Source of the DNA: a virus
Lineage: Duplodnaviria; Caudoviricetes
Length of the DNA stretch: 27,165 bases
Virus record (IMG/VR): IMGVR_UViG_3300032212_000122
Span: 1-27,165 of that record
Strand: one strand, 5' to 3'
Below are positions 1-27,165 of this stretch, one piece after another. The notes under the pieces are model-generated. The model saw nothing but the letters and a program-made list of their open reading frames with translations. It ran no database searches and was not told where the DNA came from. Position 1 is the first letter of the stretch, and every line of letters begins with the position of its first letter. A program made the translations under genes and the position numbers.

Positions 1-1096
1 ACAAACTATCATCACTACTCACTAGTTGCGCCATAGACATTAAGTCGCCGTTACTACCAGTGCCTGCTACAAGAGCAGAGATTTGCCCTAGAGCGGGATT
101 ACGAGCTTTATTAATCTCGTCTACAATAGTGTTCATATTAGCCAGTCGCTGGCTCATCATGACATTATCACCAAACTCTTGTCCCTTCTCTAAAAACCCC
201 ATGTAGAATTTCTGATTATCTAGGACACGTTGTTTAGCTTGTTTGACAATCTCAGGATTAATTGGAAGATTTTGTTTTCTATTCTCTAACACAGCCTCAT
301 CAATACTACGTAACAGAGCTTGTGTAGAAGAATTAATCCCCGTACGGTAGGCATCTACATCTAAATCATTTAATGCTCCCTTCTCATTTAATGTGTTACG
401 AAGAGCCCGTACATGGTCATCTGCTATGTTCATGAAGGTAATAGACTCCTTCCCACGGAAAGTGGAGAAATCATTAGCAGCATCTGCCTTCATCTGTGTT
501 AAGTATATCTGCCTACCTCTCTCTCTTCCTGCATCAACACCGCTCCAGTTCCCACTACCATATTTAGCGTCCATTTGGGCATTGAATTGAGCTTGTGCTG
601 AAGGCACAGCAGATCTTACATTACTACGTCCTTGCGTAAACAAGGAATTGATCTGCGGCTGTATGGCTAAATTGCTCACATCAGCTAACGCTGACTTCTG
701 TAAAGCATTTAGACGCGTCTGGAAATTAATGGGATTGAGAATACCAGAACGTTTAGCTCTTGTGAGCTTGGCTCTTTGCTTGTCTAAAGAGTTTAAAACA
801 TCCTGCTCCTCCTCTGTAATTCCATCCTGTGTAATCTGCTGTACTTGTGTAGCAAGCTGCTGGTCTTCTAGAAGAAGAGCGTTACGCTCATCCTCTAGAT
901 TTAGAACATCTGTCTGTATACCAGCTAGAGATTGTTGTTGTTCTTGTACATCCCGCTGGCGTTTAATACCAGCAAACAATTGTAACCCCTGTCCCGCCAC
1001 AGCAGCCAAGTCCTGTGTTGTACTTCCAGAAGAAGTGTGAACAGGGGCAGCCTTAGCTGGAGTAGCCTCTGATAAGGTTGTAGTGAATTGTGCCAT
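1..1096 (-). CDS. Internal virion (ejection/core) protein, truncated by the window edge
   Basis: Not in the ORF track. The ATG (cat, 1094-1096) overlaps the TAA of the upstream 1580-aa gene. The frame MAQFTTTLSEATPAKAAPVHTSSGSTTQDLAAVAGQGLQLFAG... stays open to base 1. It is helical and Q/A/L-rich, and lies downstream of the other core proteins. Confidence 0.7.
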   Translation of the reverse strand, partial: MAQFTTTLSEATPAKAAPVHTSSGSTTQDLAAVAGQGLQLFAGIKRQRDVQEQQQSLAGIQTDVLNLEDERNALLLEDQQLATQVQQITQDGITEEEQDVLNSLDKQRAKLTRAKRSGILNPINFQTRLNALQKSALADVSNLAIQPQINSLFTQGRSNVRSAVPSAQAQFNAQMDAKYGSGNWSGVDAGRERGRQIYLTQMKADAANDFSTFRGKESITFMNIADDHVRALRNTLNEKGALNDLDVDAYRTGINSSTQALLRSIDEAVLENRKQNLPINPEIVKQAKQRVLDNQKFYMGFLEKGQEFGDNVMMSQRLANMNTIVDEINKARNPALGQISALVAGTGSNGDLMSMAQLVSSDDSL

Positions 1097-8920: not shown

Positions 8921-9672
8921 TTCTTACCCACTCTACCATACGAGGGAAACTGCCATCCCCCATTAACTTGAAACGCTTTCTGGCTAGCCCAGCTAAGCCC
9001 CTTTCTACTCTGTTGTTCACTCTTCCCGTCAGGAGTTTGTTTAATTCGAGCAAAACAAACACTCTTAGCCTCAGCTAATAGAACACTGAACATCTCCGCA
9101 GGAAGATCTGGAACGTGTGTGTCGGATAGAGTAAATGTAGGCATCACGTAAGCAATAAGTTGTGTCTTACTACTCTGTAATGTGCTGTCCACCGCATTGT
9201 CATAACTATCAAAAATGATATACTCATCATCAAACGATGTATAATACTTAGGAGCTTTGTCTGTCTTAATTAACAGCTTCACCCCTGTGACATCTTCTAT
9301 CTCTGTGGTGTTAGCATTGTCTGTATTTCTATTATTAGTATGAATTAAGAAATCGTCTGGTGCCATCCATTCTACAGGCTGCCATCTAGGAGAAGTTTGA
9401 TTGATGTTCTGCTTATTATAATTCAAAGCAACAACTTCTTTAATATTCTCCTCCACTTTCATATGTGTAGGACGAGACGTAGTGAGAGATGCGTCTAGCT
9501 GTGTGAGCTTCTTAAGATGCTCCCAGTTCTTCCTACTCATTAAATCTTCATATGTAGACTTAATGATTTGAGCAACCTGCATACTCTCTACAGTGTCTGT
9601 TATTGAGGACACCTCATCGGAGTTCATGTCCGATAAAATATCCTGTGTCATGTCTAATACAGATTGTTTCAT
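8917..9672 (-). CDS. Tail adaptor / tail tubular protein A
   Basis: 251 aa. The N-terminus LDMTQDILSDMNSDEVSSITDTVESMQVAQII and the P.YYTSFDD..IIFDSYD..VD.TLQ motif fit this family, as does the synteny. Confidence 0.85.
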   Translation of the reverse strand: MKQSVLDMTQDILSDMNSDEVSSITDTVESMQVAQIIKSTYEDLMSRKNWEHLKKLTQLDASLTTSRPTHMKVEENIKEVVALNYNKQNINQTSPRWQPVEWMAPDDFLIHTNNRNTDNANTTEIEDVTGVKLLIKTDKAPKYYTSFDDEYIIFDSYDNAVDSTLQSSKTQLIAYVMPTFTLSDTHVPDLPAEMFSVLLAEAKSVCFARIKQTPDGKSEQQSRKGLSWASQKAFQVNGGWQFPSYGRVGKK

Positions 9673-9980
9673 TTCTTGTTCTTACTCCCCTTAGGGCGAC
9701 CTCCGCCGCTTGAACGTTTGCCTCCTTTCCTGCCACCATTACTTCTGTTGGTCTTCTGACTCTGTACCCGTGTATTCTTCTTACTGTTATTCTTGGGATT
9801 GCCGTCCTTATGATCTATGTCTTTTCCATCACCCTTGGACACCTTCCCTTCTTTTGTTGCTTGTCGTCTAGCTTTATTGCGTGCTGCCCTCTTCTTCTTT
9901 TGTTCAGGAGAGGAATTATATTTCCTCTGCCTCTTTGAGTCTGCTGTCGCATTAGCTTTCTTCTTCCCATCCCCTGCCAT
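9669..9980 (-). CDS. Small basic HNH-motif protein (putative endonuclease)
   Basis: Motif KGDGKDIDHKDGNPKNNSKKNTRVQSQKTNR (H-N-N variant) flanked by K/R-rich tails. Confidence 0.7.
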   Translation of the reverse strand: MAGDGKKKANATADSKRQRKYNSSPEQKKKRAARNKARRQATKEGKVSKGDGKDIDHKDGNPKNNSKKNTRVQSQKTNRSNGGRKGGKRSSGGGRPKGSKNKK

Positions 9981-11746: not shown

Positions 11747-13462
11747 TTAAATAAATCCATTAGATTCCCACTCTTTAAATCGTTCTGAGTGGCTATTTCT
11801 ACTACTCTTAGTTTTGAGGAATTCATAGAAAGCATCCGTAACACCTCCCGTAAATCCTAAATTAGCTAGATAATCGATGAGGCCGTGTGTTCTCGTAGGC
11901 CCTTCCAGGCTATCTAAGAAATCTTTAAAGCTATCGCTAGGCTGTCCCCCCAGCCATGTGAAGTCATCTAGAACAACATTCATACTTCCAGCAATAGGCA
12001 CTGTGCCCGTAGCTGTTAATGTAAAATCATCTAATGTTGTATTAATACTGCCACTAGCGAGCACCTTACCGCTGCCTGTCCACACCATATCATCTAGTGT
12101 CTCATTGAGAGAGCCAGAATTAATCACAGAGCTGGAAGCTGTTAATGTAAAATCATCTAATGTTGTATTAATACTACCTATAATATTACTAACAATAGTG
12201 GAGCTTGCTGTTATTGTAGAAGTGGGGCCTTGTATAGCTACGTTAGCTGCTACATCTACAATAGATAGAGTGCCTGCTCCTACCCCTGTTGTCTCTTGTG
12301 TGAAGGTATCACTATAGACAAGAGGGCCTCCTGCACCATTAGTTATAGCTGTATAGCTAACATCAGACATGTGATTACCCGTAGTAGCTGTTGTATTACC
12401 AGCTCCTCGGATGTACATCTGACCTTCTTTGTTCACAGCAGTCACATGAGTAAATCTAGACACACCACCAACAAATACTTCTATCTGCCCCGACCTGACT
12501 TCCGCATGTGTTACTGGGATGGGATTACCATCTGCTACACCATGGGAATAAGCTGCTCTAAATGTAGGAGTTCCTGATACAAACTCCCATAAACCTATAC
12601 GTCCCGGAGTAGTTGCTTGTAAATAGAAGCCTGTCTGAAGAGTAGCATCTGAACCAAAGATGACACCGATACTTCCTGTGTCTGTATGCCTGTAGAAGTT
12701 CATGTCAATGTCGTACTCGACATCGCATATAGCACCTTCAACAGCAGTCTCTACTATAGTAGCATCTTCTGTGAAGAGTCTATTCGTATCTAATCGTAGC
12801 CCCTTGTTAGGTGCGTATGTATGGCTGCTATCAGAAGTATGGTACTGAAGATAGCCATGGTCTGTGCCATCTACGTCAACAGTGTAATCCTCAACGGGGT
12901 AGGGCGGTGTATCTGCATAAACAGCCAAACTATCTAAGTGATAACCCGTAGTAGAAGATGCCACAACATTAGAGCGTATAAACATCTTACCCGCAGCAGT
13001 GTTGGGGCTAACTAAAGGATCTAACCTTAGAACATCATCAAGGTAGATATCAACATTGCCAGGAGACGCATCTATTGTTACTTTAAAGTCTTGTCCGTCT
13101 GCTATTGTAAAGTTATATGTGCCTTTATCTGTGAGCGGGCCCAACGACCACAAGCGCAACTGCTGCCCTGCGTTTACCCGTAGGAGATAACCGTCTGCAA
13201 AGCCTGAACCAGAATCCCCGAACGTGATGCCCATATTACCAGCATCAGTTACTTTCCTAAAATTAAGATCAGCCTTAAAGGTAGTATCTGTAGTATAGGA
13301 CTGGACTTCAACAAGGTTGTTTGTTATGTCATCACAGTATAGGCGATTGTCTTGTACCTTAAAGCCTGTGTTTGTGCTATACGATTGTCCACTATCAGCA
13401 GTGTGGTTGTGTATCTGCGTGCCGTTAGTGTCTGTAAAAAAATCAAAATATGGAGTTGCCAT
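11747..13462 (-). CDS. Virion accessory protein: two tandem ConA/LamG-like beta-sandwich repeats, a repeat stalk and a helical C-terminal domain
   Basis: Internal duplication (HTADSGQSY...NRLY...NFRKVTDAGNMGITFG...STTGYHLD versus HTSDSSHTY...NRLF...NFYRHTDTGSIGVIFG...ATTGNHMS). Four GS(I/L/M)N.TLDD repeats. The fold call is an inference. Confidence 0.55.
   Translation of the reverse strand: MATPYFDFFTDTNGTQIHNHTADSGQSYSTNTGFKVQDNRLYCDDITNNLVEVQSYTTDTTFKADLNFRKVTDAGNMGITFGDSGSGFADGYLLRVNAGQQLRLWSLGPLTDKGTYNFTIADGQDFKVTIDASPGNVDIYLDDVLRLDPLVSPNTAAGKMFIRSNVVASSTTGYHLDSLAVYADTPPYPVEDYTVDVDGTDHGYLQYHTSDSSHTYAPNKGLRLDTNRLFTEDATIVETAVEGAICDVEYDIDMNFYRHTDTGSIGVIFGSDATLQTGFYLQATTPGRIGLWEFVSGTPTFRAAYSHGVADGNPIPVTHAEVRSGQIEVFVGGVSRFTHVTAVNKEGQMYIRGAGNTTATTGNHMSDVSYTAITNGAGGPLVYSDTFTQETTGVGAGTLSIVDVAANVAIQGPTSTITASSTIVSNIIGSINTTLDDFTLTASSSVINSGSLNETLDDMVWTGSGKVLASGSINTTLDDFTLTATGTVPIAGSMNVVLDDFTWLGGQPSDSFKDFLDSLEGPTRTHGLIDYLANLGFTGGVTDAFYEFLKTKSSRNSHSERFKEWESNGFI
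12011..12175. repeat. Perfect 39-bp direct repeat (12011-12049 and 12137-12175)
   Basis: agctgttaatgtaaaatcatctaatgttgtattaatact occurs twice, 126 bp apart and in frame (SINTTLDDFTLTA). Confidence 0.95.
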
Positions 13463-16075: not shown

Positions 16076-17071
16076 TTATGCTGTTGCAGTGAGTGAGGTA
16101 ACAACTACGCCCAAAGTGTCTAGGCGCTGAACACCCACACCCCAACGAGCAGTGGTATCAAACTCATCACGCTTCTTAGAGCGATTACGCCCTGTCTCTA
16201 CTTTAGGTTCTTGTCTCCAAGCAACCATACCTGGTTTAACCTGATCATCACCAACAGCCATAAAGACGTTAGCACTACCGCCTTCGGCAGGAGCGTTGTC
16301 TGTACCATCAACACTTGCACCACCAGCTAGGGTAGGCAAACGGTTTGATGTCCAAATACTCCAACCATAAATCTCTGTAACAAACTGGTGTTCCTTGTGG
16401 AAACCATCCTTAACTAGAGTTTGTGTTAGAGGAGAAGCTGCATCTAGGTTAGACGTCAATAGAGCACGCTTACTGAATGCTGCTGCTGATACAGGATCAA
16501 CAATAGCAATACGACCGCCTACAGGCGCGTTAGCCTTATCAAAAGCAAGACGCATGTCTACCAAGTCATTCTCAGACAATGTAGCATTAGTACCCGTTGC
16601 CAAGAAACGATGGCTGAAGCCATTGATGTTATTAGGATCAGAATCAGTCTGTGCAGCATTAAGAGTGGCTAGGAAACGAGTTTCGAAGTTCTCTTGGATA
16701 GCACGAGTAGACTCAGACGCATGTTGAGAGTGCAACACCTCTACCTGAGAGCCGTCTTGTCGTAGGATATCTGTAATATACCACGCAGCACCAACATAAT
16801 CAGAGATTTGTAGCTGTACTGTACCAGAATCAATTGGATTGTACGTCAAATCCTCGTTTTCTGTAATCTCTTGTAGAGTTACAGTACCAACTGTTTTAAT
16901 ATTCAACACTGTGCCAGATTCAAAATCTGAGACATTGCGATATAGGGAAGTTGGTAGCATCCCATCATGTAGATTTGTTAAGATGAAATCAGAATATTGT
17001 TGGGCCTCGATAAAAGCATCTGAGTTGCCTACCGCAGCACCGCCACCAGGAGTACCTGCAATTTGTGACAT
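16076..17071 (-). CDS. Major capsid protein
   Basis: 331 aa. AFIEAQQYS.FIL.NLHDG.LP...YRNVSDF.SG..LNIKTVG.VT.Q and the terminal ARWG.GVQR.DTLGV match VpV262/SIO1-type capsid proteins. Follows the scaffold. Confidence 0.9.
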   Translation of the reverse strand: MSQIAGTPGGGAAVGNSDAFIEAQQYSDFILTNLHDGMLPTSLYRNVSDFESGTVLNIKTVGTVTLQEITENEDLTYNPIDSGTVQLQISDYVGAAWYITDILRQDGSQVEVLHSQHASESTRAIQENFETRFLATLNAAQTDSDPNNINGFSHRFLATGTNATLSENDLVDMRLAFDKANAPVGGRIAIVDPVSAAAFSKRALLTSNLDAASPLTQTLVKDGFHKEHQFVTEIYGWSIWTSNRLPTLAGGASVDGTDNAPAEGGSANVFMAVGDDQVKPGMVAWRQEPKVETGRNRSKKRDEFDTTARWGVGVQRLDTLGVVVTSLTATA

Positions 17072-17092
17072 AATTTATTTCCTTTATTAGTT

Positions 17093-17839
17093 TTAGTTAG
17101 ACGCAGCTTGTCGCCACTTATCAATTAATGTATTACGTTGGCCAAACAATTTAGCCTTAGCTTCTGCTACAGCATCTGGCGTAGCCGGAGGCGTTAGAGC
17201 GTTGACATTATTACTAGGAACTGTAGGCTGTGTAACCTGCGGTGTTCCAGAAGTAAAATAAGCTAATGCTGCTTTAGGACTCTTCTGCACAACGCCCTGT
17301 AAAAACCCCACAGAGATGCCAAGTTCGTTGGCTTTATTTGCCACTACCTCTTGTGCCTTATCTCCATATTGTTCTTTCAGAGTGTTGCTGAATGCAATTT
17401 CGTTATCTAAAGCTTGTTGGGCTTGTTCCCTTTGAGAGGAGAATTGATTAAACAATTCACCAATTTGAGCGGCATCTAAACCTTCTACAGACGGTTGTTC
17501 TGTACTTGTTTCATTCTGCTGCTGAATACGCTCTAACACTTGCTCCATGCCTTGACGCTTGTTTAGCTCCTCTTGCAACTGAGCTACTTGGCCTTCCAAG
17601 TTTGATATGTGCCCTTGTGCATGAGGAATACTTCCTAGCGCTGCGCTAACATCTGCGTATTTCTGACGACCCTCTGCATCCTTAATACTTGAAAGCTGGT
17701 CTGCAAACAAGTCTGGGGCTGCTGGGGTCTGGCTCACATTAGGCTCCTGAGCTTGGGGAGTCTGCTGGTTCTGGGTAGGCTCAGCATTATTTGAATTCTG
17801 TTGAGAGCCTTCTTGTGGTTCAAAAAGGGTAGTTGACAT
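17093..17839 (-). CDS. Capsid scaffolding protein
   Basis: Q/E/P-rich disordered N-terminus, then G.QKYA....AL..I.HAQ.HI..LE and a coiled coil. Lies between portal and capsid. Confidence 0.8.
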   Translation of the reverse strand: MSTTLFEPQEGSQQNSNNAEPTQNQQTPQAQEPNVSQTPAAPDLFADQLSSIKDAEGRQKYADVSAALGSIPHAQGHISNLEGQVAQLQEELNKRQGMEQVLERIQQQNETSTEQPSVEGLDAAQIGELFNQFSSQREQAQQALDNEIAFSNTLKEQYGDKAQEVVANKANELGISVGFLQGVVQKSPKAALAYFTSGTPQVTQPTVPSNNVNALTPPATPDAVAEAKAKLFGQRNTLIDKWRQAASN

Positions 17840-17848
17840 ATTATATTC

Positions 17849-18091
17849 CTATTTAATTAAATTAATAACTTCTTGTAGTGTACGCTGTCGAGCAAACTCT
17901 TCAGCATAATACTCTGTCAGATGTTGGACACTGCCGTTCTTAACAACATCCCTCATCTCACTCAAGCTCTTATCTATGTCTTCTTCCAACATAGCCATAA
18001 GGCGCTCTCTTACAGAAACAGAAGATAGCCATTCCTTTTTCATAATGGCTGTCTCTGCATCATTTAGGTTTCTAGACCAACGGGGCTTCAT
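17849..18091 (-). CDS. Small conserved protein after the portal
   Basis: The likely start is the ATG at 18091 (MKPRWS; GGAGAAGAGG upstream). Helical, ends RTLQEVINLIK and overlaps the portal 3' end. Confidence 0.65.
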   Translation of the reverse strand: MKPRWSRNLNDAETAIMKKEWLSSVSVRERLMAMLEEDIDKSLSEMRDVVKNGSVQHLTEYYAEEFARQRTLQEVINLIK

Positions 18092-19841
18092 CCTCTTCTC
18101 CTTCAATAGGAGTGGCTTGCTCCACTTCTAGATTCTCTTGTGCTGTCTGGGCCAGACGCTGTGTCTCTATCTGTTCCATCAAAGCTATATTATCTCCATA
18201 CAGCTCAAACCTTCGTAGGTTTAAGAGGTCTTCTGTTAGCTTAGCTAAGCCTTTGCTGCTCAAGTGCTGGCTAACTTGTGGCCACAATTGTGTATTAGAC
18301 AGAGAAACAATGTTCTGCATAAGCTGTGCTTGTTGCGCAAAATGTCTAGCGCCTATAGGGCGTAGCTTGCCTGCTGCTGTAATATCTTCCTTAGTTATTT
18401 CTAAGAAATCAGCAACACCTAAATCATCATCCATCACACGGACAACATCAGCACCTTGCATATTACGTACAGAAGTTTCTAGCATATTGTTTAAGAGAGG
18501 CTCTAACAATTCTATTTCAAATTGTGTTGTCTTCTCTTGGAATATCCTACCAGCAGCATTCTCTAGACTACTAACCTCGAAGGCTGTCTTCTCTCCCGGG
18601 GTACGTATCCCCATAGCCTGCTTAGGAGCACCAGCCATCTCTTCCATCATATTCATCAGGAAAGCAATCTCTGCTTCCATGGCTTGTATGTTAGCTCCTG
18701 TGAACAGAGGACGTATGTCCCCATCTTCATCTAACTGGAAGCGGGCAAAGGGGCCCCAATCAGCAGCCTCTTGTAGCTCTCCCTTCACTAGAAGGGGAGG
18801 CATAATTGTCAAGTCACGAGCATCCGCTGTGGCATTCTGTAGATGATCTAGCCTATATTGCATCCCTACTAGATTATCTAGAGGGCCCATGCCATATAGA
18901 TTGTCTGGCCGCTTACGCCAGCTAGTCATCACTTTATAGCCATTACGTTTCCATGCTGGAATAGGCTCTTTACGAAGCAATGTAGTTCTATCAATAATAG
19001 TTATAATATAATCGTTTAACAACTCACCACTATCAGGATCATGCATTGTACCTTCAAACTCTAAGATCTCTACATAACCACTACCTAGATAAGTGTAATA
19101 ATCACCAAAGCCATCAACAGAGAAAGCCCCAGCTTTGTCGAAGTCATCACGAGTAATGCTCTTAAGATGGGAGCGTGTCTCCTTAGCTCTGTCAAGAGCC
19201 TTCTTAATATACTCATCACCTGTATTCCCATACTCAAGCTCTAGGGTTCCTAGATGTTTGATTGTACGTGTAATCTTCCAACTGTCCTCAAAGGACAGAG
19301 CTGTGGGATCAAAAACTACATCTAGAGGGCTGAGCCTGACAGCTCTAGGGCCTATGTAGCCAGGCACTATCTCACCTGTCTCTACATCCTCTTTACTCTC
19401 ATTAACCCAGATGACATCTCCTTGGGCCACACCATAATCGATGTAGTCGTAGACAAGCTTACTAATGACGCTACGCATGTCATCTTCTCGTACTTTGTTA
19501 GACATGTACGCCTGTATGGCATCCTGCTTTTCCTTTGTCTCATCCTCTAGTGTATACCCTTCCCACTTCATCCAATCATCATTAGGAAAAAGCGCACTAA
19601 TATAATTAGCGTGTAGATTGTCACGTATTTGACAAATCTTAGGAAGCGTTGTCGAGTTCCTCCAGGGGAGGGTGTTTCCGTTTGTTTTGGATGTGTCTGT
19701 TGCGAAGATGTAGTTTCGCAATTCTCGCTTCTCGGCTTCCCATGCTGCTCGTTGTCCTTTCTTCTCATCCCACTGCTCGACGATGAAGGAGGCTAGAGTA
19801 TCTTGTTGTAAAGCTCTTTCAACTACCTCTAATACACTCAT
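18072..19841 (-). CDS. Portal protein
   Basis: 589 aa with ELRNYIFATDT..T....LPW.N.TT.PK.CQIRDNLHANY, WR.RPDNLYGMGPLDNLVGMQYR.DHL and MEE.AGAP..AMGIRTPGEKTAFEV motifs. Confidence 0.92.
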   Translation of the reverse strand: MSVLEVVERALQQDTLASFIVEQWDEKKGQRAAWEAEKRELRNYIFATDTSKTNGNTLPWRNSTTLPKICQIRDNLHANYISALFPNDDWMKWEGYTLEDETKEKQDAIQAYMSNKVREDDMRSVISKLVYDYIDYGVAQGDVIWVNESKEDVETGEIVPGYIGPRAVRLSPLDVVFDPTALSFEDSWKITRTIKHLGTLELEYGNTGDEYIKKALDRAKETRSHLKSITRDDFDKAGAFSVDGFGDYYTYLGSGYVEILEFEGTMHDPDSGELLNDYIITIIDRTTLLRKEPIPAWKRNGYKVMTSWRKRPDNLYGMGPLDNLVGMQYRLDHLQNATADARDLTIMPPLLVKGELQEAADWGPFARFQLDEDGDIRPLFTGANIQAMEAEIAFLMNMMEEMAGAPKQAMGIRTPGEKTAFEVSSLENAAGRIFQEKTTQFEIELLEPLLNNMLETSVRNMQGADVVRVMDDDLGVADFLEITKEDITAAGKLRPIGARHFAQQAQLMQNIVSLSNTQLWPQVSQHLSSKGLAKLTEDLLNLRRFELYGDNIALMEQIETQRLAQTAQENLEVEQATPIEGEEDEAPLV

Positions 19842-21373
19842 TTGTAGACAATACCTCCGAAGCGACTGTGTGTGAGTTGTGTGTTCATAGCAACATTATC
19901 TCTTTCTATTTTCTGTTTAGGTGCCTTAGCTATCTCCACTACGGAGGCTAAGCAATCTTTAATGTCATCATGTCTAGGGCGAGCTTGTATAAGCTCCTCT
20001 TCTAATGCAGGAATATACCCACCCTTGTAATGCCACACTTGTAAATTATCGTATCGAGGTTCCAATGCTGCGGCAACACGCTCCTCCTTACTACCCTGAT
20101 GTCTGTTAGGACGATGTTCATCTATCTTCAGAATGCTTCCGTTCTGTTTAAATCTGTCCTTTAAATCCCTAACAATAACAGCCTGTGCCACCGTCACTTC
20201 AGCACGTAACAGCCTGAAGTCCCACTTCTGATGCACATCTTGAATGTGCGTGTAATAATCATTTATCTTATCTGTCCTAAATCTATCTATATCTAATACA
20301 TAAATATCGTTAGCAGCGCTAACACCTACCACTACAATAGCTGAATAATCAGCTTTGACATTCAAAGAGAATGCAAAATCTATTGCAGCATATACGTTTA
20401 GCTTGTCGTCTTTAAAATACCACTTACCTGCTCTTTGCTGTAAATGCTTCTTATCATAGTATTGAAAGCGGCTATTATCGAGTCTAGCACTTTCAGGATC
20501 GTTTGGATCATTATAGTATTGTGCATAGAACTGTGTCCTATCCGAATACATTGCTGAAATGCGAGCAAGCTCTTTCCGATTAAAACCAAAAAGCTTTCCG
20601 TCAGCTCTTGCCGTACGCGGCCAAAGAAATCTACCATCTACTTCCACCACCTCTTCCATAATATCCCATATAGGCTCTTCTCCTATAGGAACATCTGTCT
20701 CTTCATCATATATAGGAACTACTTGTTCCTTCCAAATACTGTATTGATCTGCTGGATGGTAGCGAGTACCACAAGCCTTTACAACACCACCAGTGTTTAG
20801 GATGGAGGCCATCTGTGACATAGCAGCAGCACACTTACGTCTGCCCTCTTCTGTGTACGCATTGTCAGGCACAACAACATCATCACTAACAACAACCTCT
20901 GCATGTAGCCCTGTAGTGTTTGTACTAAGGCCTGCGGCAAACACAGTGAAGTCTCGTATGCCTTCTTCTTTACGTCTGGGATGGTCTACAGAGATAGCAC
21001 CTGTGCTCCACTTCTCTCTCTTCCCCTCATCCTCATTCACCATCTCTGGCCAATAACGTCTATATATAGGAGACGTTAATGTATTCTTAATTGCATAAAG
21101 CTGTGCTTCCGCCAGCGTTGTTGTAGCTGATACATATAGAATAGAGGTTTCAGGATGCTTAGTCACCCACCAAGCCGCCCAAACTTCTATACAATGACTC
21201 TTCATGTGTGCTCGTGGGAGCAACAATAATTGATTGGGCGTATTCCCTTCTTGGAGCCATTTAAAGACATTCTCGTGTAACTCCCCATACTCCCTCTCGG
21301 GATGTACAAGACGAGCGAACGTCAGTAAGTCAGCCTCAGCTAGCTCTCTTATTTCTTCTATTTGGCTATTCAT
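19838..21373 (-). CDS. terL: Terminase large subunit
   Basis: Walker A-like LLLPRAHMKS, Walker B VVVSDDVV, coupling motif GTRYH, and nuclease acidic residues in AAIDFAFS, ADYSAI and HDDIKD. Confidence 0.95.
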   Translation of the reverse strand: MNSQIEEIRELAEADLLTFARLVHPEREYGELHENVFKWLQEGNTPNQLLLLPRAHMKSHCIEVWAAWWVTKHPETSILYVSATTTLAEAQLYAIKNTLTSPIYRRYWPEMVNEDEGKREKWSTGAISVDHPRRKEEGIRDFTVFAAGLSTNTTGLHAEVVVSDDVVVPDNAYTEEGRRKCAAAMSQMASILNTGGVVKACGTRYHPADQYSIWKEQVVPIYDEETDVPIGEEPIWDIMEEVVEVDGRFLWPRTARADGKLFGFNRKELARISAMYSDRTQFYAQYYNDPNDPESARLDNSRFQYYDKKHLQQRAGKWYFKDDKLNVYAAIDFAFSLNVKADYSAIVVVGVSAANDIYVLDIDRFRTDKINDYYTHIQDVHQKWDFRLLRAEVTVAQAVIVRDLKDRFKQNGSILKIDEHRPNRHQGSKEERVAAALEPRYDNLQVWHYKGGYIPALEEELIQARPRHDDIKDCLASVVEIAKAPKQKIERDNVAMNTQLTHSRFGGIVYK

Positions 21374-21376
21374 ATA

Positions 21377-21874
21377 TTATCGTTTAATTCTAGCTAGATC
21401 GCTATTCACAACACTAAGCTTAGCCTTGTCTTCTTGTTTCTTCTTCTTAGGCCTGCCTACATTAGCTTTACTTATATAATCATTATCTGCTAAATACTTG
21501 AGTGTTGCCTGTGAAGCTGTGCCCTCTTCAAGCTGTGCAAGCATGTTCTTAATACTCTTTCCACGAAGCTTAGCATTAAGCTCTTTCACCATAGCTGCAT
21601 AATACTCTTGGAAGAAAGGCTTGCTCTTAACGAGCAGCCAATGCTCGTAGTTAGCAAAATACATATTGGCGAATTCCCATTCGCTTACATCTTCAAGCTC
21701 TACATATAGTTTATGCAAGGAAGGGACGTAACGTCCATGATATCGTTTATCAGACGTAGACGTTGTGTACAACACAGCATCTCTGTCATTACAATGCTCT
21801 AAGAACAATCCTTCTGTCAAGAATTTGTTACCAAATCCTCTCCACTTATCTCTTTCTTTTTTTATCTCTTCCAT
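21377..21874 (-). CDS. terS: Terminase small subunit (putative)
   Basis: 165 aa immediately upstream of terL. Contains LF.E, SL.KLY.E..D..E.EFA, and a C-terminal VGRP.K and D..RI pattern. AAGGA RBS. Confidence 0.75.
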   Translation of the reverse strand: MEEIKKERDKWRGFGNKFLTEGLFLEHCNDRDAVLYTTSTSDKRYHGRYVPSLHKLYVELEDVSEWEFANMYFANYEHWLLVKSKPFFQEYYAAMVKELNAKLRGKSIKNMLAQLEEGTASQATLKYLADNDYISKANVGRPKKKKQEDKAKLSVVNSDLARIKR

Positions 21875-22627: not shown

Positions 22628-22721
22628 AATAATAATCATTCTTATTTGTAAACTACTCTCCCCCACTAATATTAATCTAAATGATAATGATTCTCATGTA
22701 GTAATGATAATAATATTTATT
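22628..22721. promoter_or_regulatory. Three Fur-box-like sites
   Basis: 22628-22646 AATAATAATCATTCTTATT, 22680-22698 AATGATAATGATTCTCATG and 22703-22721 AATGATAATAATATTTATT match AATGATAATnATTATCATT at 15, 16 and 15 of 18 positions. Confidence 0.6.
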
Positions 22722-23146: not shown

Positions 23147-23266
23147 ATGAGTAAAGTAGTTGGTGTTGCTTTGTTTGCTTTGGGGGCTGTTATATTGCCT
23201 TTAGCATTTGAGGCATATATACAAGCTATCATCAACGTAGCTGCTTACACTGGTAAGCTACCATAA
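23147..23266 (+). CDS. First early gene, 39-aa hydrophobic peptide
   Basis: GGAG RBS at 23137-23140 and ATG at 23147 give MSKVVGVALFALGAVILPLAFEAYIQAIINVAAYTGKLP. The longer track start overlaps the promoter. Confidence 0.65.
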   Translation: MSKVVGVALFALGAVILPLAFEAYIQAIINVAAYTGKLP

Positions 23267-23282
23267 ATAATTTAAATAGAGC

Positions 23283-23310
23283 TTGACTCTTAAATAGATG
23301 TGATTATAAT
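23283..23310 (+). promoter_or_regulatory. Strong sigma70-type early promoter P2
   Basis: TTGACT-16 bp-TATAAT with an AT-rich UP-like element. The -10 is flanked by the inverted repeat AGATGTGA/TCACATCT. Confidence 0.8.
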
Positions 23311-23316
23311 TAGTCA

Positions 23317-23620
23317 CATCTGTTAAGGGAAAGTGTTTCTCTTTTGTGTTTGCTTGTGTGGCTATTGTCATGCAAGGGAGCCAAGCGCTAAGCAACCAGC
23401 GCGGGAGGTGAAGGTGTTAACGTGTCGCATACGTGACATATTAAAGGCTTTCTATTGAATCCCAGTGAGTGCATGCGGGCCAAGGCTAACCGCTTATGAA
23501 ATTGCCGATCGTTTGTTCTAGCGTCCCTAGTTATTTAGGGGAAATAGGAACGCGCCCCCAGTGAGGCGCATAACCAGCCGTGTAGGCCATCATAAATGAT
23601 GTCGGTGAATATCACTGCTT
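23317..23620 (+). ncRNA. Candidate structured non-coding RNA or long structured leader
   Basis: No credible ORF. GC-richer than its flanks, with at least seven stems, several relying on G-U pairs that work only on the + strand. Directly downstream of P2. Confidence 0.55.
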
Positions 23621-23651
23621 TAATAATATTCTTTTCTTAAGGTGTATTATT

Positions 23652-23786
23652 ATGACTCGAAGTAATAGAAGGCTAGCAAGGATAAACAAATCTTGTAAGC
23701 TCAAAGCAAAGCAAAAACCTGAAGTAGCTCACGTAATTACCGTGAGTAAGACAGTAAGAACACTTAAACCATTGACAGCTAATTAA
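23652..23786 (+). CDS. 44-aa basic hypothetical protein
   Basis: Not in the track. AAGGTG RBS; MTRSNRRLARINKSCKLKAKQKPEVAHVITVSKTVRTLKPLTAN. Its stop abuts the next RBS. Confidence 0.5.
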   Translation: MTRSNRRLARINKSCKLKAKQKPEVAHVITVSKTVRTLKPLTAN

Positions 23787-23797
23787 AGGTGAATGAT

Positions 23798-24271
23798 ATG
23801 AACGTATTAACATTAAAGAAATGTAAAGAAACAACAACACTAATTTCTAAAGCTGGTGTTAAGCTAGATCAACGTATACATGACGTTGCTGTGTCTGGTA
23901 TTGCACATTGGCTACAATGTGGAGATAACACCATTCTTACAGAGCTTGTTAAAGCTATGCCTAAATCGGGCAGAGGTAATGCATTGAAATTCTTTATTAG
24001 CAAACATACGAAAGGTATGTTGAAATGGGATAGTAAGGCTAACAACGGCACTGGTGGGTATAAAGGTAAGAAGCTAGATGTTAATAGCTGGGAGAAAATA
24101 GCAATTGTAATGGATGCTAACAAAGCTCCCTTCTATATGAAAGAAGATAAAGAGCCTAGTGTATGGAATGAGAAGGCGGCTGTTCTATCGCTTGTAGCTA
24201 AGCTAAAGAAACATGCTAAAGAGCATGAGCTATGCGAAGAGAGCAAGAGATTGTTGAGTGCGTTTGCATGA
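23798..24271 (+). CDS. Conserved phage early hypothetical protein
   Basis: AAGGTG RBS then ATG at 23798. The G.KLD..IH..AVS...H....GD......LV.AMPK..R.NAL pattern recurs in early regions of podoviruses. Confidence 0.8.
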   Translation: MNVLTLKKCKETTTLISKAGVKLDQRIHDVAVSGIAHWLQCGDNTILTELVKAMPKSGRGNALKFFISKHTKGMLKWDSKANNGTGGYKGKKLDVNSWEKIAIVMDANKAPFYMKEDKEPSVWNEKAAVLSLVAKLKKHAKEHELCEESKRLLSAFA

Positions 24272-24516
24272 AATACAAACATCTCTACCGCCGCGTGGAC
24301 TACCCCGAAGAGCGGGGCTATAGGATGGAAGCACAACCTCTGCCTGCTTGGATATATTTAACCATTAGAAAGAAAGGAGATAGTAAGAACTTAGTAGTGC
24401 ATTCTCGTATACACTTGAATAAGGAAGTGGTGTTAAATCCTGCTTATAGTGCTACTTTTTCTGACATTGATATAATCAAAGACCTTAGTGGTGAAGTAAG
24501 CCATAGGTTTTTATGA
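24268..24516 (+). CDS. Hypothetical early protein, 82 aa
   Basis: ATGA overlap with the previous stop; MKYKHLYRR...DIDIIKDLSGEVSHRFL. Confidence 0.7.
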   Translation: MKYKHLYRRVDYPEERGYRMEAQPLPAWIYLTIRKKGDSKNLVVHSRIHLNKEVVLNPAYSATFSDIDIIKDLSGEVSHRFL

Positions 24517-24668
24517 GGAAAGAACAAGCTATTTGTTCGCAAGAACAAGCTATCATTCCGAAAGGGATACCACTCATTATAGGCTTGGTGTTGTTGCTGT
24601 TTAGTGATTATGCAATGACTCCAGCCTATACATCTATGAAACAAATAACAGCCAGTGTATTTGGCTAG
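24513..24668 (+). CDS. 51-aa single-TM hypothetical protein
   Basis: Not in the track. ATGA overlap; MRKEQAICSQEQAIIPKGIPLIIGLVLLLFSDYAMTPAYTSMKQITASVFG. Confidence 0.6.
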   Translation: MRKEQAICSQEQAIIPKGIPLIIGLVLLLFSDYAMTPAYTSMKQITASVFG

Positions 24669-24677
24669 GAGAATGTA

Positions 24678-24827
24678 ATGACTATAATCAGAAGCCCAGC
24701 TAAGACATTCTGGCATGTTGTACATAACAACGTAATGATTGGATGCTTCTACACAAAGAAAGAAGCACAATCTTTTATTAATGACATGGGAGAATTGCCT
24801 GCCATGTTACGAGAACAAGCATTTTAA
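24678..24827 (+). CDS. 49-aa hypothetical protein
   Basis: Not in the track. AGGAG RBS; MTIIRSPAKTFWHVVHNNVMIGCFYTKKEAQSFINDMGELPAMLREQAF. Confidence 0.65.
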   Translation: MTIIRSPAKTFWHVVHNNVMIGCFYTKKEAQSFINDMGELPAMLREQAF

Positions 24828-24841
24828 CCTAGGAGAACAAC

Positions 24842-25285
24842 ATGGAAAATTTCTTTTTATTAATAACAAAGGCCCTAGCTGCTGGCACTATGGATGCATG
24901 GCTTCCTGTTGGCCTCTTTGTGGCTGGAGGACTCCTAGCCTTATGGGCTATGTGTGTTGTTGTTGCTCTATCGTTTGATTATGTAACAGACGATGAGGAC
25001 TATAACAAGACATCGAAGCTGTTTATACACTTTGATTTTAGTTGGGAGGTTGAGCGGGGTTTTATTATTTTTCTTTCTTCGATGATGATGCTAGCAGCCC
25101 TTGTTGTGTCTAGTGTTATGGTGTTACCTACCCTATTCTTTTTATTAGCAGAAGCTATATGGCTACCTGTATTAATAGCTAGTACATATACCACGCTACG
25201 TCTCGTCCGAGCTGTTGTGAGGCTAAAGAACAAGCTATCATTGCACATGGCAGACCTTTCCGCTCACACCAGTAAGGGAGAATAA
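24842..25285 (+). CDS. Early membrane protein, paralog 1
   Basis: AGGAG RBS and several hydrophobic helices. C-terminus VRAVVRLKNKLSLHMADLSAH. Confidence 0.8.
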   Translation: MENFFLLITKALAAGTMDAWLPVGLFVAGGLLALWAMCVVVALSFDYVTDDEDYNKTSKLFIHFDFSWEVERGFIIFLSSMMMLAALVVSSVMVLPTLFFLLAEAIWLPVLIASTYTTLRLVRAVVRLKNKLSLHMADLSAHTSKGE

Positions 25286-25289
25286 CATT

Positions 25290-25844
25290 GTGGAAACTAT
25301 TTTTAATTGGATTGCTGAAGGCTTTGCCCATTCTAACACTGTTGGTATGCTTACTACTTGTGTGGCATTATGTCTCGCTAGCCTTATCGGCTATGTGTCT
25401 TATCTTATTGGGGGCTCTCTTTGGGCGTTTATCGAAGACCTCTCTCTCAAAGAAGCTCTCTGCAAAGAAGAGAAGAAAGTAGATTATTACAAGTCTTATA
25501 CTCAGAGTATGTTGCATTCCTGCGATGACAAGGAACTCTGGGAAAAACACACAACGCCCCACGGCACTCACTACTACCGTAAATCTCGTATTAAATATGT
25601 AACATATTATGTCTCTAAATATAAGGGGCCCTTATTAGTAGGTAATTTGATGGCTATAGCAGCTCTAGTGGGTCTTGGAATAGTGTTGGATGTATTCTTA
25701 TGGGCTCCTGTAGTTACGAGTGTTGTAGGAGGCAGTGTTGGTCTTATGTTCCTAGCTCGTGGTGTTAGGCGTCTACAGAAGAAATTGAATGCGCATTTAG
25801 CAGACAAAGATGCACACAAAGAAAAGGAGAAAGAGGATGTTTGA
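25290..25844 (+). CDS. Early membrane protein, paralog 2
   Basis: GGAG RBS, GTG start and about three TM segments. C-terminus ARGVRRLQKKLNAHLADKDAH. Confidence 0.8.
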   Translation: METIFNWIAEGFAHSNTVGMLTTCVALCLASLIGYVSYLIGGSLWAFIEDLSLKEALCKEEKKVDYYKSYTQSMLHSCDDKELWEKHTTPHGTHYYRKSRIKYVTYYVSKYKGPLLVGNLMAIAALVGLGIVLDVFLWAPVVTSVVGGSVGLMFLARGVRRLQKKLNAHLADKDAHKEKEKEDV

Positions 25845-26370
25845 ATATACAACCCCTACAGAAGTGAAAGTAAGGGCAGACTTTGGTAAGTATCACATCA
25901 GTAATTGCAGCGCTAAGCTTATAAATACAATGGGAGATTGTTCTACTATTAGTGTGGGCCACTACTATTGTACAGACATCAAAGCTGCTCATGTGTTTAT
26001 GCACTATCTACTTAGACAACGTTCAGCAGAACGAAAGCCAGAAGGCTATCGCTGGAAATTTGTATTAACAGATAGCGCACACAACTTTGAGAGCGGCAGT
26101 GCTAAGCATTTACGTGCAGTGTTAGACGAGATTTGTGCGGACAGCCATGTTGTAGAAGTTAATGGCTGGGAAGGAGACAAGTTTGAAATACGTGTCTGGG
26201 AAATAGAGAAGGGATGGAAATGGATGACAGCTCCTGAGCTTCCTGCTAAATACGAGGCATATGTAGCCTCTACCTACAGAGATGGGCACACACACAAGGA
26301 GACGGTGAAAGTGCTAGACGACGCAGATGTTTATGGCAACGACCATCCTACTGCTGACGAAGACTGGTGA
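25837..26370 (+). CDS. Hypothetical protein, 177 aa
   Basis: The likely start is the ATG at 25837 (AGGAG upstream, overlapping the previous stop). Alpha/beta pattern with no motif recognised. Confidence 0.7.
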   Translation: MFEYTTPTEVKVRADFGKYHISNCSAKLINTMGDCSTISVGHYYCTDIKAAHVFMHYLLRQRSAERKPEGYRWKFVLTDSAHNFESGSAKHLRAVLDEICADSHVVEVNGWEGDKFEIRVWEIEKGWKWMTAPELPAKYEAYVASTYRDGHTHKETVKVLDDADVYGNDHPTADEDW

Positions 26371-26381
26371 GGACACGACAA

Positions 26382-27165
26382 ATGAGTGTATTTAAAAAAA
26401 TGGGTACAGATTGTGAATTCTTTGTGTCACACAGAGGGGAGATTGGTAGTGCTATTGGTCTGATTGGGGGCAGTAAGAATGCCCCGCTCTTAGTAGAGAA
26501 TGGTAATTTGCAAGAGGATAATGTTCTTGCAGAGATGGCAACAGATCCATGCGCTACGTTGGATGAGTGGCTGACAAAGATTAGTAGTGTTCGTGTTCAA
26601 TTGGGAGAGAAGCTAGAAGGCTATGAGCTTGTGTGTAAAAGCTCCCATCATTACACTAAGCAACAACTGCTCTCCTATCCTGCTGACGCTATGAAGCTGG
26701 GCTGTACAGCAGATTACAACATCTATTCAAACAAGAATAACCCCACACCCAACGCTAAGACAGTGCTACGAACAGCGGCGGGACACATACATTATTCCTA
26801 CGATAATCCCTCGGTGTCTACGACAATTAACATTGCGAAGTGCTTGGATGCTACGTTAGGGCTGTGGTCTGTTATTACAGATAACGATAGACATCGCCGC
26901 TTGTTATACGGCAAGGCGGGTTGTATTCGCTTCAAAGAGTATGGAGGGGAGTATAGAACACTAGGTAATTTCTGGTTAGCTAACACAGCTCGTCAGACAT
27001 ACGTCTGGAAAATAACAAAGATGTGTGTAGAACAGCATCACACATTGCTTCCTATGCTACGAGCTATTGTATCTGAAGAGGCAATACAAGCTATCATCAA
27101 CGACAGCGACAGAGAACGAGCTTTACTATTAACACCAGCTATTACCCGTGTAGTTAGTAGAATGC
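26382..27165 (+). CDS. phiEco32-like COOH-NH2 ligase type 2, truncated by the window edge
   Basis: Not in the track (no stop). MSVFKKMGTDCEFFV...IGLIGGSK..P...QEDNVLAE...GCTADYN...LRTAAGHIH...RRLLYGKAGCIRFKEYGGEYRTLGNFW are the hallmark motifs of this family. GAGG RBS. Confidence 0.88.
   Translation, partial: MSVFKKMGTDCEFFVSHRGEIGSAIGLIGGSKNAPLLVENGNLQEDNVLAEMATDPCATLDEWLTKISSVRVQLGEKLEGYELVCKSSHHYTKQQLLSYPADAMKLGCTADYNIYSNKNNPTPNAKTVLRTAAGHIHYSYDNPSVSTTINIAKCLDATLGLWSVITDNDRHRRLLYGKAGCIRFKEYGGEYRTLGNFWLANTARQTYVWKITKMCVEQHHTLLPMLRAIVSEEAIQAIINDSDRERALLLTPAITRVVSRM

What the first reader, a model, noticed from the sequence alone, without database searches (positions are those of the whole stretch)
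23219..27102. Strand-biased 12-mer ACAAGCTATCAT repeated through the early arm in different reading frames
Seen: exact copies at 23221-23232, 24545-24556, 25230-25241 and 27086-27097, plus a partial ACAAGCTAT at 24524-24532 and a one-mismatch ACAAACTATCAT at 1-12. All are on the + strand; I saw no reverse copy. Pairs extend further: ATACAAGCTATCATCAACG (23219, 27084) and AAGAACAAGCTATCATT (24541, 25226). The copies sit in four unrelated genes and read QAII in three but NKLSL at 25230, which points to a nucleic-acid-level signal. Known: T5 and the LUZ24-like phage tf carry programmed single-strand nicks at short motifs on one strand. Inference: nick sites, DNA-entry or protection signals (Chi-like), protein-binding sites, or recombination points that shuffle early genes. 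Caveat: AGCT is common in this genome, and IQAIIN may be protein-constrained in the ligase.
Basis: partly seen in the sequence, partly recalled or inferred. Interest (0 to 1): 0.75.

Follow-up and report, generated by a model that had tools for sequence, protein, structure and literature searches.

The report
New one-strand phage DNA nick signal
This marine-type phage repeats one 12-letter DNA word on a single strand at the start of its genome, as do many relatives; the word likely marks programmed single-strand breaks in the packaged DNA, possibly cut by a small nuclease-like gene in the same genome, which would extend an unexplained phage trait to a new family and make it testable.

Summary
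The repeat is real. There are four exact ACAAGCTATCAT copies, all on the early-coding strand, in two reading frames and far above a codon-aware null. The window is a partial Zobellviridae-like genome. Relatives carry genome-specific versions (core WGSYATCAT) on the same strand, crowded at the early end, with sites gained and lost in orthologous genes. The variants grade into the proven nick motif of tf/LUZ24 (TACT/RTGMC) through TACTATCAT in record G062. In the cultured relative Klyazma, the published '711-bp terminal repeat' begins inside the motif, where the authors saw a Sanger signal drop; nicks are known to cause both. A Logan contig starts at ACAAACT^ATCAT (window position 8). A small late HNH-type gene (9669-9980, PHROG 4590), also present in tf and LUZ24, goes with the motif family in 11 of 18 genomes; none of 22 genomes lacking it has the motif. 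No nick was shown directly. The four exact sites are bridged in the Logan assembly, two relatives carry the word on the opposite strand, and nickase activity is untested. Verdict: a new variant of tf-type nick sites with a candidate nickase.

The parts
23221..23232 (+). Exact motif copy 1 (predicted nick site), in a short early ORF, reads QAII
24524..24532 (+). Partial copy ACAAGCTAT, 21 nt before copy 2; lacks the final CAT, so probably not a full site
24545..24556 (+). Exact motif copy 2, codon 11 of a 51-aa ORF, reads QAII
25230..25241 (+). Exact motif copy 3, near the end of a 147-aa ORF, reads NKLS
27086..27097 (+). Exact motif copy 4, in the COOH.NH2 ligase gene; the homologous site in G003 carries that genome's own variant, and G001 has lost it and has one at codon 72
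1..12 (+). Variant ACAAACTATCAT (WACTATCAT type) at the contig start, antisense to a late gene; a Logan contig begins at position 8, between AACT and ATCAT
9669..9980 (-). 103-aa basic HNH-type protein (PHROG 4590; H57, N69, N78 invariant; predicted beta-beta-alpha core) in the late arm; candidate nickase
26367..27164 (+). phiEco32-like COOH.NH2 ligase gene, cut by the contig end; marks kinship with LUZ24/tf gene content
16076..21874 (-). Major capsid, scaffold-region, portal-type, large terminase and probable small terminase genes; they place the phage with Zobellviridae and put the early end near 22.3 kb

Best explanation
The 12-mer is this phage's version of a one-strand signal shared across many Zobellviridae, and it likely marks sites where the packaged DNA is nicked on the early-coding strand, predicted to be cut by the small late HNH-type protein encoded at 9669-9980. 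Shown: the enrichment, the strand bias, the crowding at the early end, independence from reading frame, site turnover among orthologous genes, genome-specific variants, and co-occurrence with the HNH-type gene. Inferred: that the sites are nicks (cut near GC^T^ATCAT, within one base of the tf register), that the HNH protein cuts them late in infection, alone or with the terminase, and that word and enzyme drift together. What the nicks are for remains open, as in tf and T5; a role in packaging or ejection of the early end is my guess.
For: (1) Same layout as tf. In 10 relatives, 64 sites are on the top strand in the early arm and 0 on the bottom strand there; 58 of 67 top-strand sites lie in the first third. 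A blind k-mer scan that recovers TACTGTGAC in tf and TACTATGAC in LUZ24 finds the GCTATCAT/GGTATCAT family in the window, G016, G022/G033, G080, Pecta, CVT22, three near-identical Klebsiella phages and T4S1. (2) Graded series TACTGTGAC, TACTATGAC, TACTATCAT (G062, 12 top / 0 bottom), TGCTATCAT, AGCTATCAT. (3) In Klyazma the annotated right terminal repeat starts at 49588, inside the motif at 49582-49590; chance is about 0.1%. The paper reports a Sanger signal drop there, using a primer that copies the motif strand (PMC9960094). Nicks are documented to give read pile-ups and false PhageTerm termini (PMC3634792; PMC7291057). (4) A Logan contig starts at window position 8, AACT^ATCAT. (5) The HNH-type gene is present in tf and LUZ24. 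The motif family is enriched in 11 of 18 gene-positive and 0 of 22 gene-negative genomes, with joint absence on several separate branches.
Against: No break was observed in this phage. One Logan contig (depth about 10) bridges all four exact sites, and other Logan breaks fall at non-motif places. In Klyazma a second identical site at 49131-49139 lies between the primer and the boundary with no drop mentioned; the boundary is one base off the tf register; the authors read it as N4-like packaging. G004 and G006 carry the exact 12-mer on the opposite strand. In the late arm the strand rule is unresolved: 3 top against 4 bottom. Seven of 18 gene-positive genomes miss the strict threshold; G025, G051 and MEP401 show nothing. 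G001 has Gly at the usual Asp before the His. The HNH matches are weak: Pfam below cut-off, Foldseek E 1.4. The Fisher test ignores kinship and the patterns were partly chosen after seeing these genomes. The tf consensus itself is absent from the window.
Confidence: 0.62

Rival explanations
1. The motif is a double-strand terminase cut site that ends packaging after the genome unit length, so copies near the early end are alternative stops (N4-like variable end).
For: The Klyazma repeat boundary lies in the first copy from the end, and the authors proposed N4-like packaging. Sites crowd at one end.
Against: Copies extend 10-20 kb and further into the genome, beyond plausible headful slack (inference). 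The signal drop seen from the right-end primer needs an interrupted template strand. In tf the like-placed sites are ligase-repairable nicks (PMC3517423).
Confidence: 0.1
2. The motif is a promoter element (an extended -10, TATCAT) for host polymerase or a phage sigma factor, or an RNA-level signal in early transcripts.
For: TATCAT resembles a -10 box, and the ATG-type variants read TGnTATCAT. Almost all sites are on the coding strand. Klyazma has an annotated putative sigma factor.
Against: No -35 information in a 72-site profile. Distance to the next gene start is like random (median 278 vs 293 nt, n=62, P=0.65). None of the four window sites is called by the sigma-70 scan. The Klyazma sigma-like gene hit only 5 genomes by tblastn, not G001 or G003. 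It does not explain the Klyazma terminus call.
Confidence: 0.12
3. The motif is a binding or protection site (Chi-like, or for a phage or host DNA-binding protein) on the first-entering DNA, without a break.
For: One strand, early end, any frame. The HNH-type protein is very basic and lacks the usual Asp in G001, so it could bind without cutting. Gene-negative G087 and VPMCC5 share a different early top-strand word.
Against: The same core occurs in phages of Erwinia, Citrobacter, Klebsiella and Salinivibrio but not in related Vibrio and Pseudomonas phages, and follows a phage gene rather than the host. Klyazma points to a physical break. Host genomes were not scanned.
Confidence: 0.12
4. Chance or codon bias (Ala-Ile-Ile read as GCT ATC AT in an AGCT-rich genome).
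For: Three of the four copies read QAII, and AGCT is common (234 copies).
Against: Codon-aware null 4 vs 0.09 in the window, 5 vs 0.13 in G001 and 4 vs 0.02 in G003. Late genes do not produce it on their own strand in the window. Non-coding copies exist in G001 and G003.
Confidence: 0.02

Closest known systems
Localized single-strand interruptions of Pseudomonas phage tf (TACT/RTGMC; PMC3517423) and of LUZ24-like phages P1-14Or01 (PMC3634792) and Rembedalsseter (WACTRTGAC; PMC11780129)
   Same: Short word on the top strand only, denser in the early half, inside genes at any position; convergent gene arms; COOH.NH2 ligase gene; the same small HNH-type gene family; 6 of 9 letters shared with TACTATGAC in register.
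   Different: Different consensus (WGSYATCAT with an ACWA/AA 5' extension; tf motif 0/0 in the window); a different family (Zobellviridae-like); the HNH gene lies in the late arm here but in the replication region of tf; nicks are proven in tf but only inferred here.
T5/BF23 nicks with sciA/sciB, and phiKMV-like nicks (as described in PMC3517423)
   Same: One-strand sites, denser in one half of the genome; T5's nicking genes map to the late region, as does the candidate here.
   Different: Unrelated consensus (R/GCGCRGG; CGACxxxxxCCTA/CTCCGG). Homology of the candidate to SciA/SciB was not tested.
HNH homing endonuclease I-HmuI (PDB 1u3e)
   Same: Only PDB match by sequence profile (E 0.16) and top Foldseek row (E 1.4); DH...N...N aligned. 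That I-HmuI nicks one strand is recalled, not from a call.
   Different: Both matches are statistically weak. The candidate is 103 aa against 174, has no separate C-terminal DNA-binding domain, and is conserved rather than sporadic.

Membership tests
tf/LUZ24-type nick sites | Short motif over-represented on one strand only | tested here: met
   4/0 exact in the window; 64 top vs 0 bottom in early arms of 10 relatives; exceptions G004 and G006
tf/LUZ24-type nick sites | Denser in the early half, inside genes regardless of frame | tested here: met
   58 of 67 in the first third; two sense frames plus non-coding sites
tf/LUZ24-type nick sites | Consensus WACTRTGMC | tested here: not met
   0/0 in the window; related series through TACTATCAT in G062
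tf/LUZ24-type nick sites | Same strand kept in the late arm (antisense to late genes) | tested here: inconclusive
   3 top vs 4 bottom in late arms of 10 relatives; tf 2 vs 0
tf/LUZ24-type nick sites | Read ends or polymerase stops at the motif | tested here: inconclusive
   Klyazma terminus call and Sanger drop in a site; Logan contig starts in the variant at 1-12 but bridges the four exact sites; no raw reads available
tf/LUZ24-type nick sites | Ligase-repairable single-strand break in virion DNA | not testable with these tools
   needs virion DNA
Zobellviridae | Capsid, portal and terminase homology; oppositely oriented gene arms | tested here: met
   MCP 63% to PQ867844 and 50-54% to ICP2, CW02, Pecta; tree
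Zobellviridae | No phage RNA polymerase | not testable with these tools
   the contig holds only about 27 kb; the replication region is missing
HNH (beta-beta-alpha-metal) nucleases | His-Asn-Asn/His triad on a beta-beta-alpha core | tested here: met
   H57, N69, N78 invariant in 84 of 84 aligned homologs; model E53-57, E70-74, H75-86, mean pLDDT 79.6; Pfam HNH_3 E 2.8e-4, below cut-off
HNH (beta-beta-alpha-metal) nucleases | Site-specific nicking activity | not testable with these tools
   needs purified protein or a mutant phage
Sigma-70 promoters | -35 box at 16-18 nt and position upstream of genes | tested here: not met
Chi sites | Over-represented in the host genome and acting on RecBCD/AddAB | not tested
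   host unknown; no host scan run

The most novel reading that the evidence does not exclude
One small HNH protein family (PHROG 4590) is the long-sought nickase of tf, LUZ24-like, phiEco32-like and Zobellviridae phages. Its target word has drifted from TACTRTGAC through TACTATCAT to (A/T)GCTATCAT, the genomes rewrite their coding sequences to follow it, and lineages that lost the gene lost the sites. Klyazma's 711-bp 'terminal repeat' is the first nick misread as a genome end. Cultured gene-positive and gene-negative relatives then give a direct test of what programmed phage nicks do, and a family of roughly 100-aa nickases with 9-12 bp specificity.
Probability: 0.4. Interest if true: 0.8.

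Novelty: new variant of a known kind. Interest (0 to 1): 0.62.

Why it matters
Programmed nicks in phage DNA have been known for about 50 years and their function is still unexplained (PMC11780129). The papers read here name no nicking enzyme for tf or LUZ24-like phages. This finding adds a family and a new target word, names cultured phages where nicks can be mapped quickly (Klyazma, Pecta, CVT22), and offers natural pairs with and without both gene and sites. It also suggests that a published terminus call is an artefact, which matters for annotating Citrovirus phages studied for therapy.

Tried and rejected
DNA-level blastn of the early arm against phage records found only short matches. 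No RNA holder was listed, and the one DNA run may be the source sample. The idea that the right window end is a break at copy 4 was rejected, because a Logan contig runs about 7.9 kb past 27165. Contig ends near a motif in two IMG/VR fragments (G015, G079) stop 13-15 nt past the predicted cut and were not counted as support. The loose pattern WRSYRTSAY was too degenerate to separate genomes. The Monte-Carlo codon shuffle gave no answer and was replaced by an exact calculation. The single-sequence fold was poor. The wide structural search was not obtained. Literature searches found no report of this motif or of nicks in Zobellviridae: GCTATCAT+phage, Zobellviridae+nick (62), Citrovirus/CVT22/Pecta/Zobellviridae (69), nicked+phage genome+nanopore+nicking motif (70, no hits), phiEco32/nicks/LUZ24/HNH (108), nickase/LUZ24/virion DNA/nicks (123), PhageTerm/nick/single-strand/Bruynoghevirus (135). 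These cover only the open-licence library and were judged mostly from listings. PhageTerm for Asterion gave only 'redundant, multiple' with no positions (PMC12697139), so it is uninformative.
Full report
Observation. ACAAGCTATCAT is the only 12-mer with four copies in the window and the top word of a Markov-3 scan after correction for all 12-mers (log10 E -2.4). With amino acids fixed and synonymous codons resampled by arm-specific usage, 0.09 copies are expected against 4 seen (the word was chosen after the fact). There is no excess of two-mismatch copies (5 vs 4.05).

Setting. The window is the whole contig G000. Structural genes run leftward on the minus strand, and early genes start near 23 kb on the plus strand and end in a COOH.NH2 ligase gene. 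The capsid protein is 63% identical to a Zobellviridae record and 50-54% to ICP2, CW02 and Pecta; the ligase is about 40% identical to those of LUZ24 and tf. The closest relatives are uncultured IMG/VR contigs with 71-83% capsid identity. The single run holding this DNA is a microbial mat metagenome and may be the source.

Relatives. G001 has six sites of the form AYWAGSTATCAT and G003 six of ACWAGCCATCAT, all on the early-coding strand. In the ligase gene, G003 keeps the window's site but with the synonymous change that matches its own variant; G001 has lost that site and has one at codon 72 in the other frame. A search of 50 and 41 records with WWGSYATCAT and of 16 named phages with WGSYATCAT showed one-strand clusters in G016, G022, G033, G080, G086, Pecta, KpnP_VR7901, CVT22, T4S1 and, weakly, CW02; most other records were at background. 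A blind scan recovers the published motifs of tf and LUZ24 and finds the GCTATCAT/GGTATCAT family as a top word in most of these. It did not surface it in G001, G086 or CW02, where targeted counts were needed. Pooled over 10 relatives: 64 sites top/early, 0 bottom/early, 3 top/late, 4 bottom/late; 58 of 67 top-strand sites lie in the first third. Two close fragments break the rule: G004 (one exact copy) and G006 (one exact, two variants) carry the word on the opposite strand. I cannot explain this.

Link to known nicks. tf has 14 ligase-repairable nicks at TACT/RTGMC on the top strand, 11 in the left half (PMC3517423; passages and Discussion read). Rembedalsseter has 13 at WACTRTGAC, mostly inside genes (PMC11780129; passages and section 3.9 read). 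The window's core AGCTATCAT and the Citrovirus core TGCTATCAT align in register with TACTATGAC (6 of 9 letters for the latter). G062 carries the intermediate TACTATCAT 12 times on the top strand and never on the bottom. G074 carries the tf word itself, 6 top and 1 bottom. The tf consensus is absent from the window, so this is not membership by sequence.

Physical hints. Klebsiella phage Klyazma (PMC9960094; passages, file list and the second half of the supplement read) has six top-strand copies. Its annotated 711-bp right repeat starts at 49588, inside the copy at 49582-49590, reading AAATGC^TATCAT on the motif strand. The other boundary matches the deposited end of Pecta, so it is probably the true end (inference). 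The authors found the repeats unusually long and saw a large Sanger drop at the transition, mostly from the right end; that primer ends near 49014 and copies the motif strand. Nicks are documented to give one-ended read peaks (PMC3634792, passages) and extra PhageTerm peaks that risk false termini (PMC7291057, passages). The chance that one called end falls within a site is about 0.1%. Against this: an identical site at 49131-49139 lies between primer and boundary with no drop mentioned, the cut is one base off the tf register, the authors favour N4-like packaging, and I saw no chromatograms or reads. For the window, a Logan contig begins at position 8, ACAAACT^ATCAT, in the tf register. But one contig bridges all four exact sites, other breaks lie at non-motif places, and the run may not be independent.

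Candidate enzyme. Comparing protein clusters between 11 motif-positive and 9 motif-negative genomes singled out, among genes of the window, the 103-aa late ORF at 9669-9980 (8 vs 1). A profile search raised this to all motif-positive genomes in which the region is assembled; G022 has a frameshift and G003's contig lacks the flanking tail genes. It also hit tf, in a frame overlapping the annotated tf_29, and LUZ24. The tf protein is 84% identical in LUZ24-like phages and about 60% in phiEco32-like ones (264 records). The family is PHROG 4590, of unknown function. His57, Asn69 and Asn78 are invariant in 84 aligned homologs, the model has a beta-beta-alpha core, and the nearest structure is I-HmuI, weakly. 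Of 46 genomes scored, six were dropped: four near-duplicates, G003 for the gap, and the window. In the remaining 40, one of eight family patterns was enriched at corrected P<0.01 in 11 of 18 gene-positive and 0 of 22 gene-negative genomes, or 13 of 18 and 1 of 22 at P<0.05. This ignores kinship, the patterns were partly post hoc, and some gene-negative records are 91-99% complete. On a capsid-plus-portal tree, gene and motif are jointly absent in the sister clade of the window's group, in G002, in G034 and in the PA11/VPMCC5 clade; ICP2, G051, G025 and MEP401 have the gene with a weak or no motif. Earlier AI notes of this scan proposed the same family for LUZ24-like and phiEco32-like phages. 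I reached it before reading them (note), but they are not independent support.

Rivals. A promoter reading fails the tests run: no -35 signal in 72 sites, no pull toward gene starts, no sigma-70 call at the four sites, and Klyazma's putative sigma factor hits only five genomes. Because late-arm copies show no strand preference, an RNA-level signal is not excluded. A double-strand terminase stop fits Klyazma's boundary but not sites 10-20 kb inward. A binding or Chi-like site without a break remains possible; hosts were not scanned. Codon bias is rejected.

Verdict. The signal is real, selected and shared across a family. It works like the tf/LUZ24 nick sites but has a different consensus, so it is a new variant rather than a member by sequence. 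I put the nick reading at about 0.7 and the HNH protein as the enzyme at about 0.5; both are inferred. Seven literature searches found no report of this word or of nicks in Zobellviridae, within an open-licence library. The papers describing Pecta and CVT22 did not appear in the listings, and the supplementary figures of PMC3634792 and PMC7291057 were not seen.

Noticed in passing
window 22668-22714: Fur-box-like text (AATGATAATGATTCTCAT; 5 mismatches to a recalled 19-bp consensus) in the non-coding leader. The same stretch gave short blastn hits to non-coding or terminal regions of phi92-like phages and Lau218, and G009 has six TAATGAGAATG.
   Followed up: partly
window 24842-25285 and 25290-25844: Adjacent hydrophobic early ORFs share a C-terminal segment (blastp E 5e-6) and are probably paralogs; the motif is present in the first only.
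   Followed up: partly
window 12011-12166: Direct repeat about 126 nt apart inside a 571-aa late gene; the Logan contigs branch there.
   Followed up: no
L243:16129-16413 (phage tf): The HNH-type ORF overlaps the annotated tf_29 in another frame, so the conserved gene appears mis-annotated in that record.
   Followed up: partly
G087 and VPMCC5 (OL676770), early arms: These HNH-negative genomes share another top-strand word, TTATGTGATGCG (4 and 2 copies), with the same early-end crowding.
   Followed up: no
L057 (PQ867844) 41778-45583 and G062 early arm: Palindromes built on GTCTAGAC repeat 4 and 11 times in the early arm; possibly operator sites.
   Followed up: no
L067:7442-7453 (G004) and L069:18270-19824 (G006): Exact 12-mer and variants on the strand opposite to all other relatives; two copies in G006 lie 15 nt apart in a primase-like gene.
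   Followed up: partly
window 27165: A Logan contig of 21,589 nt continues about 7.9 kb beyond the window end and differs at two letters.
   Followed up: no
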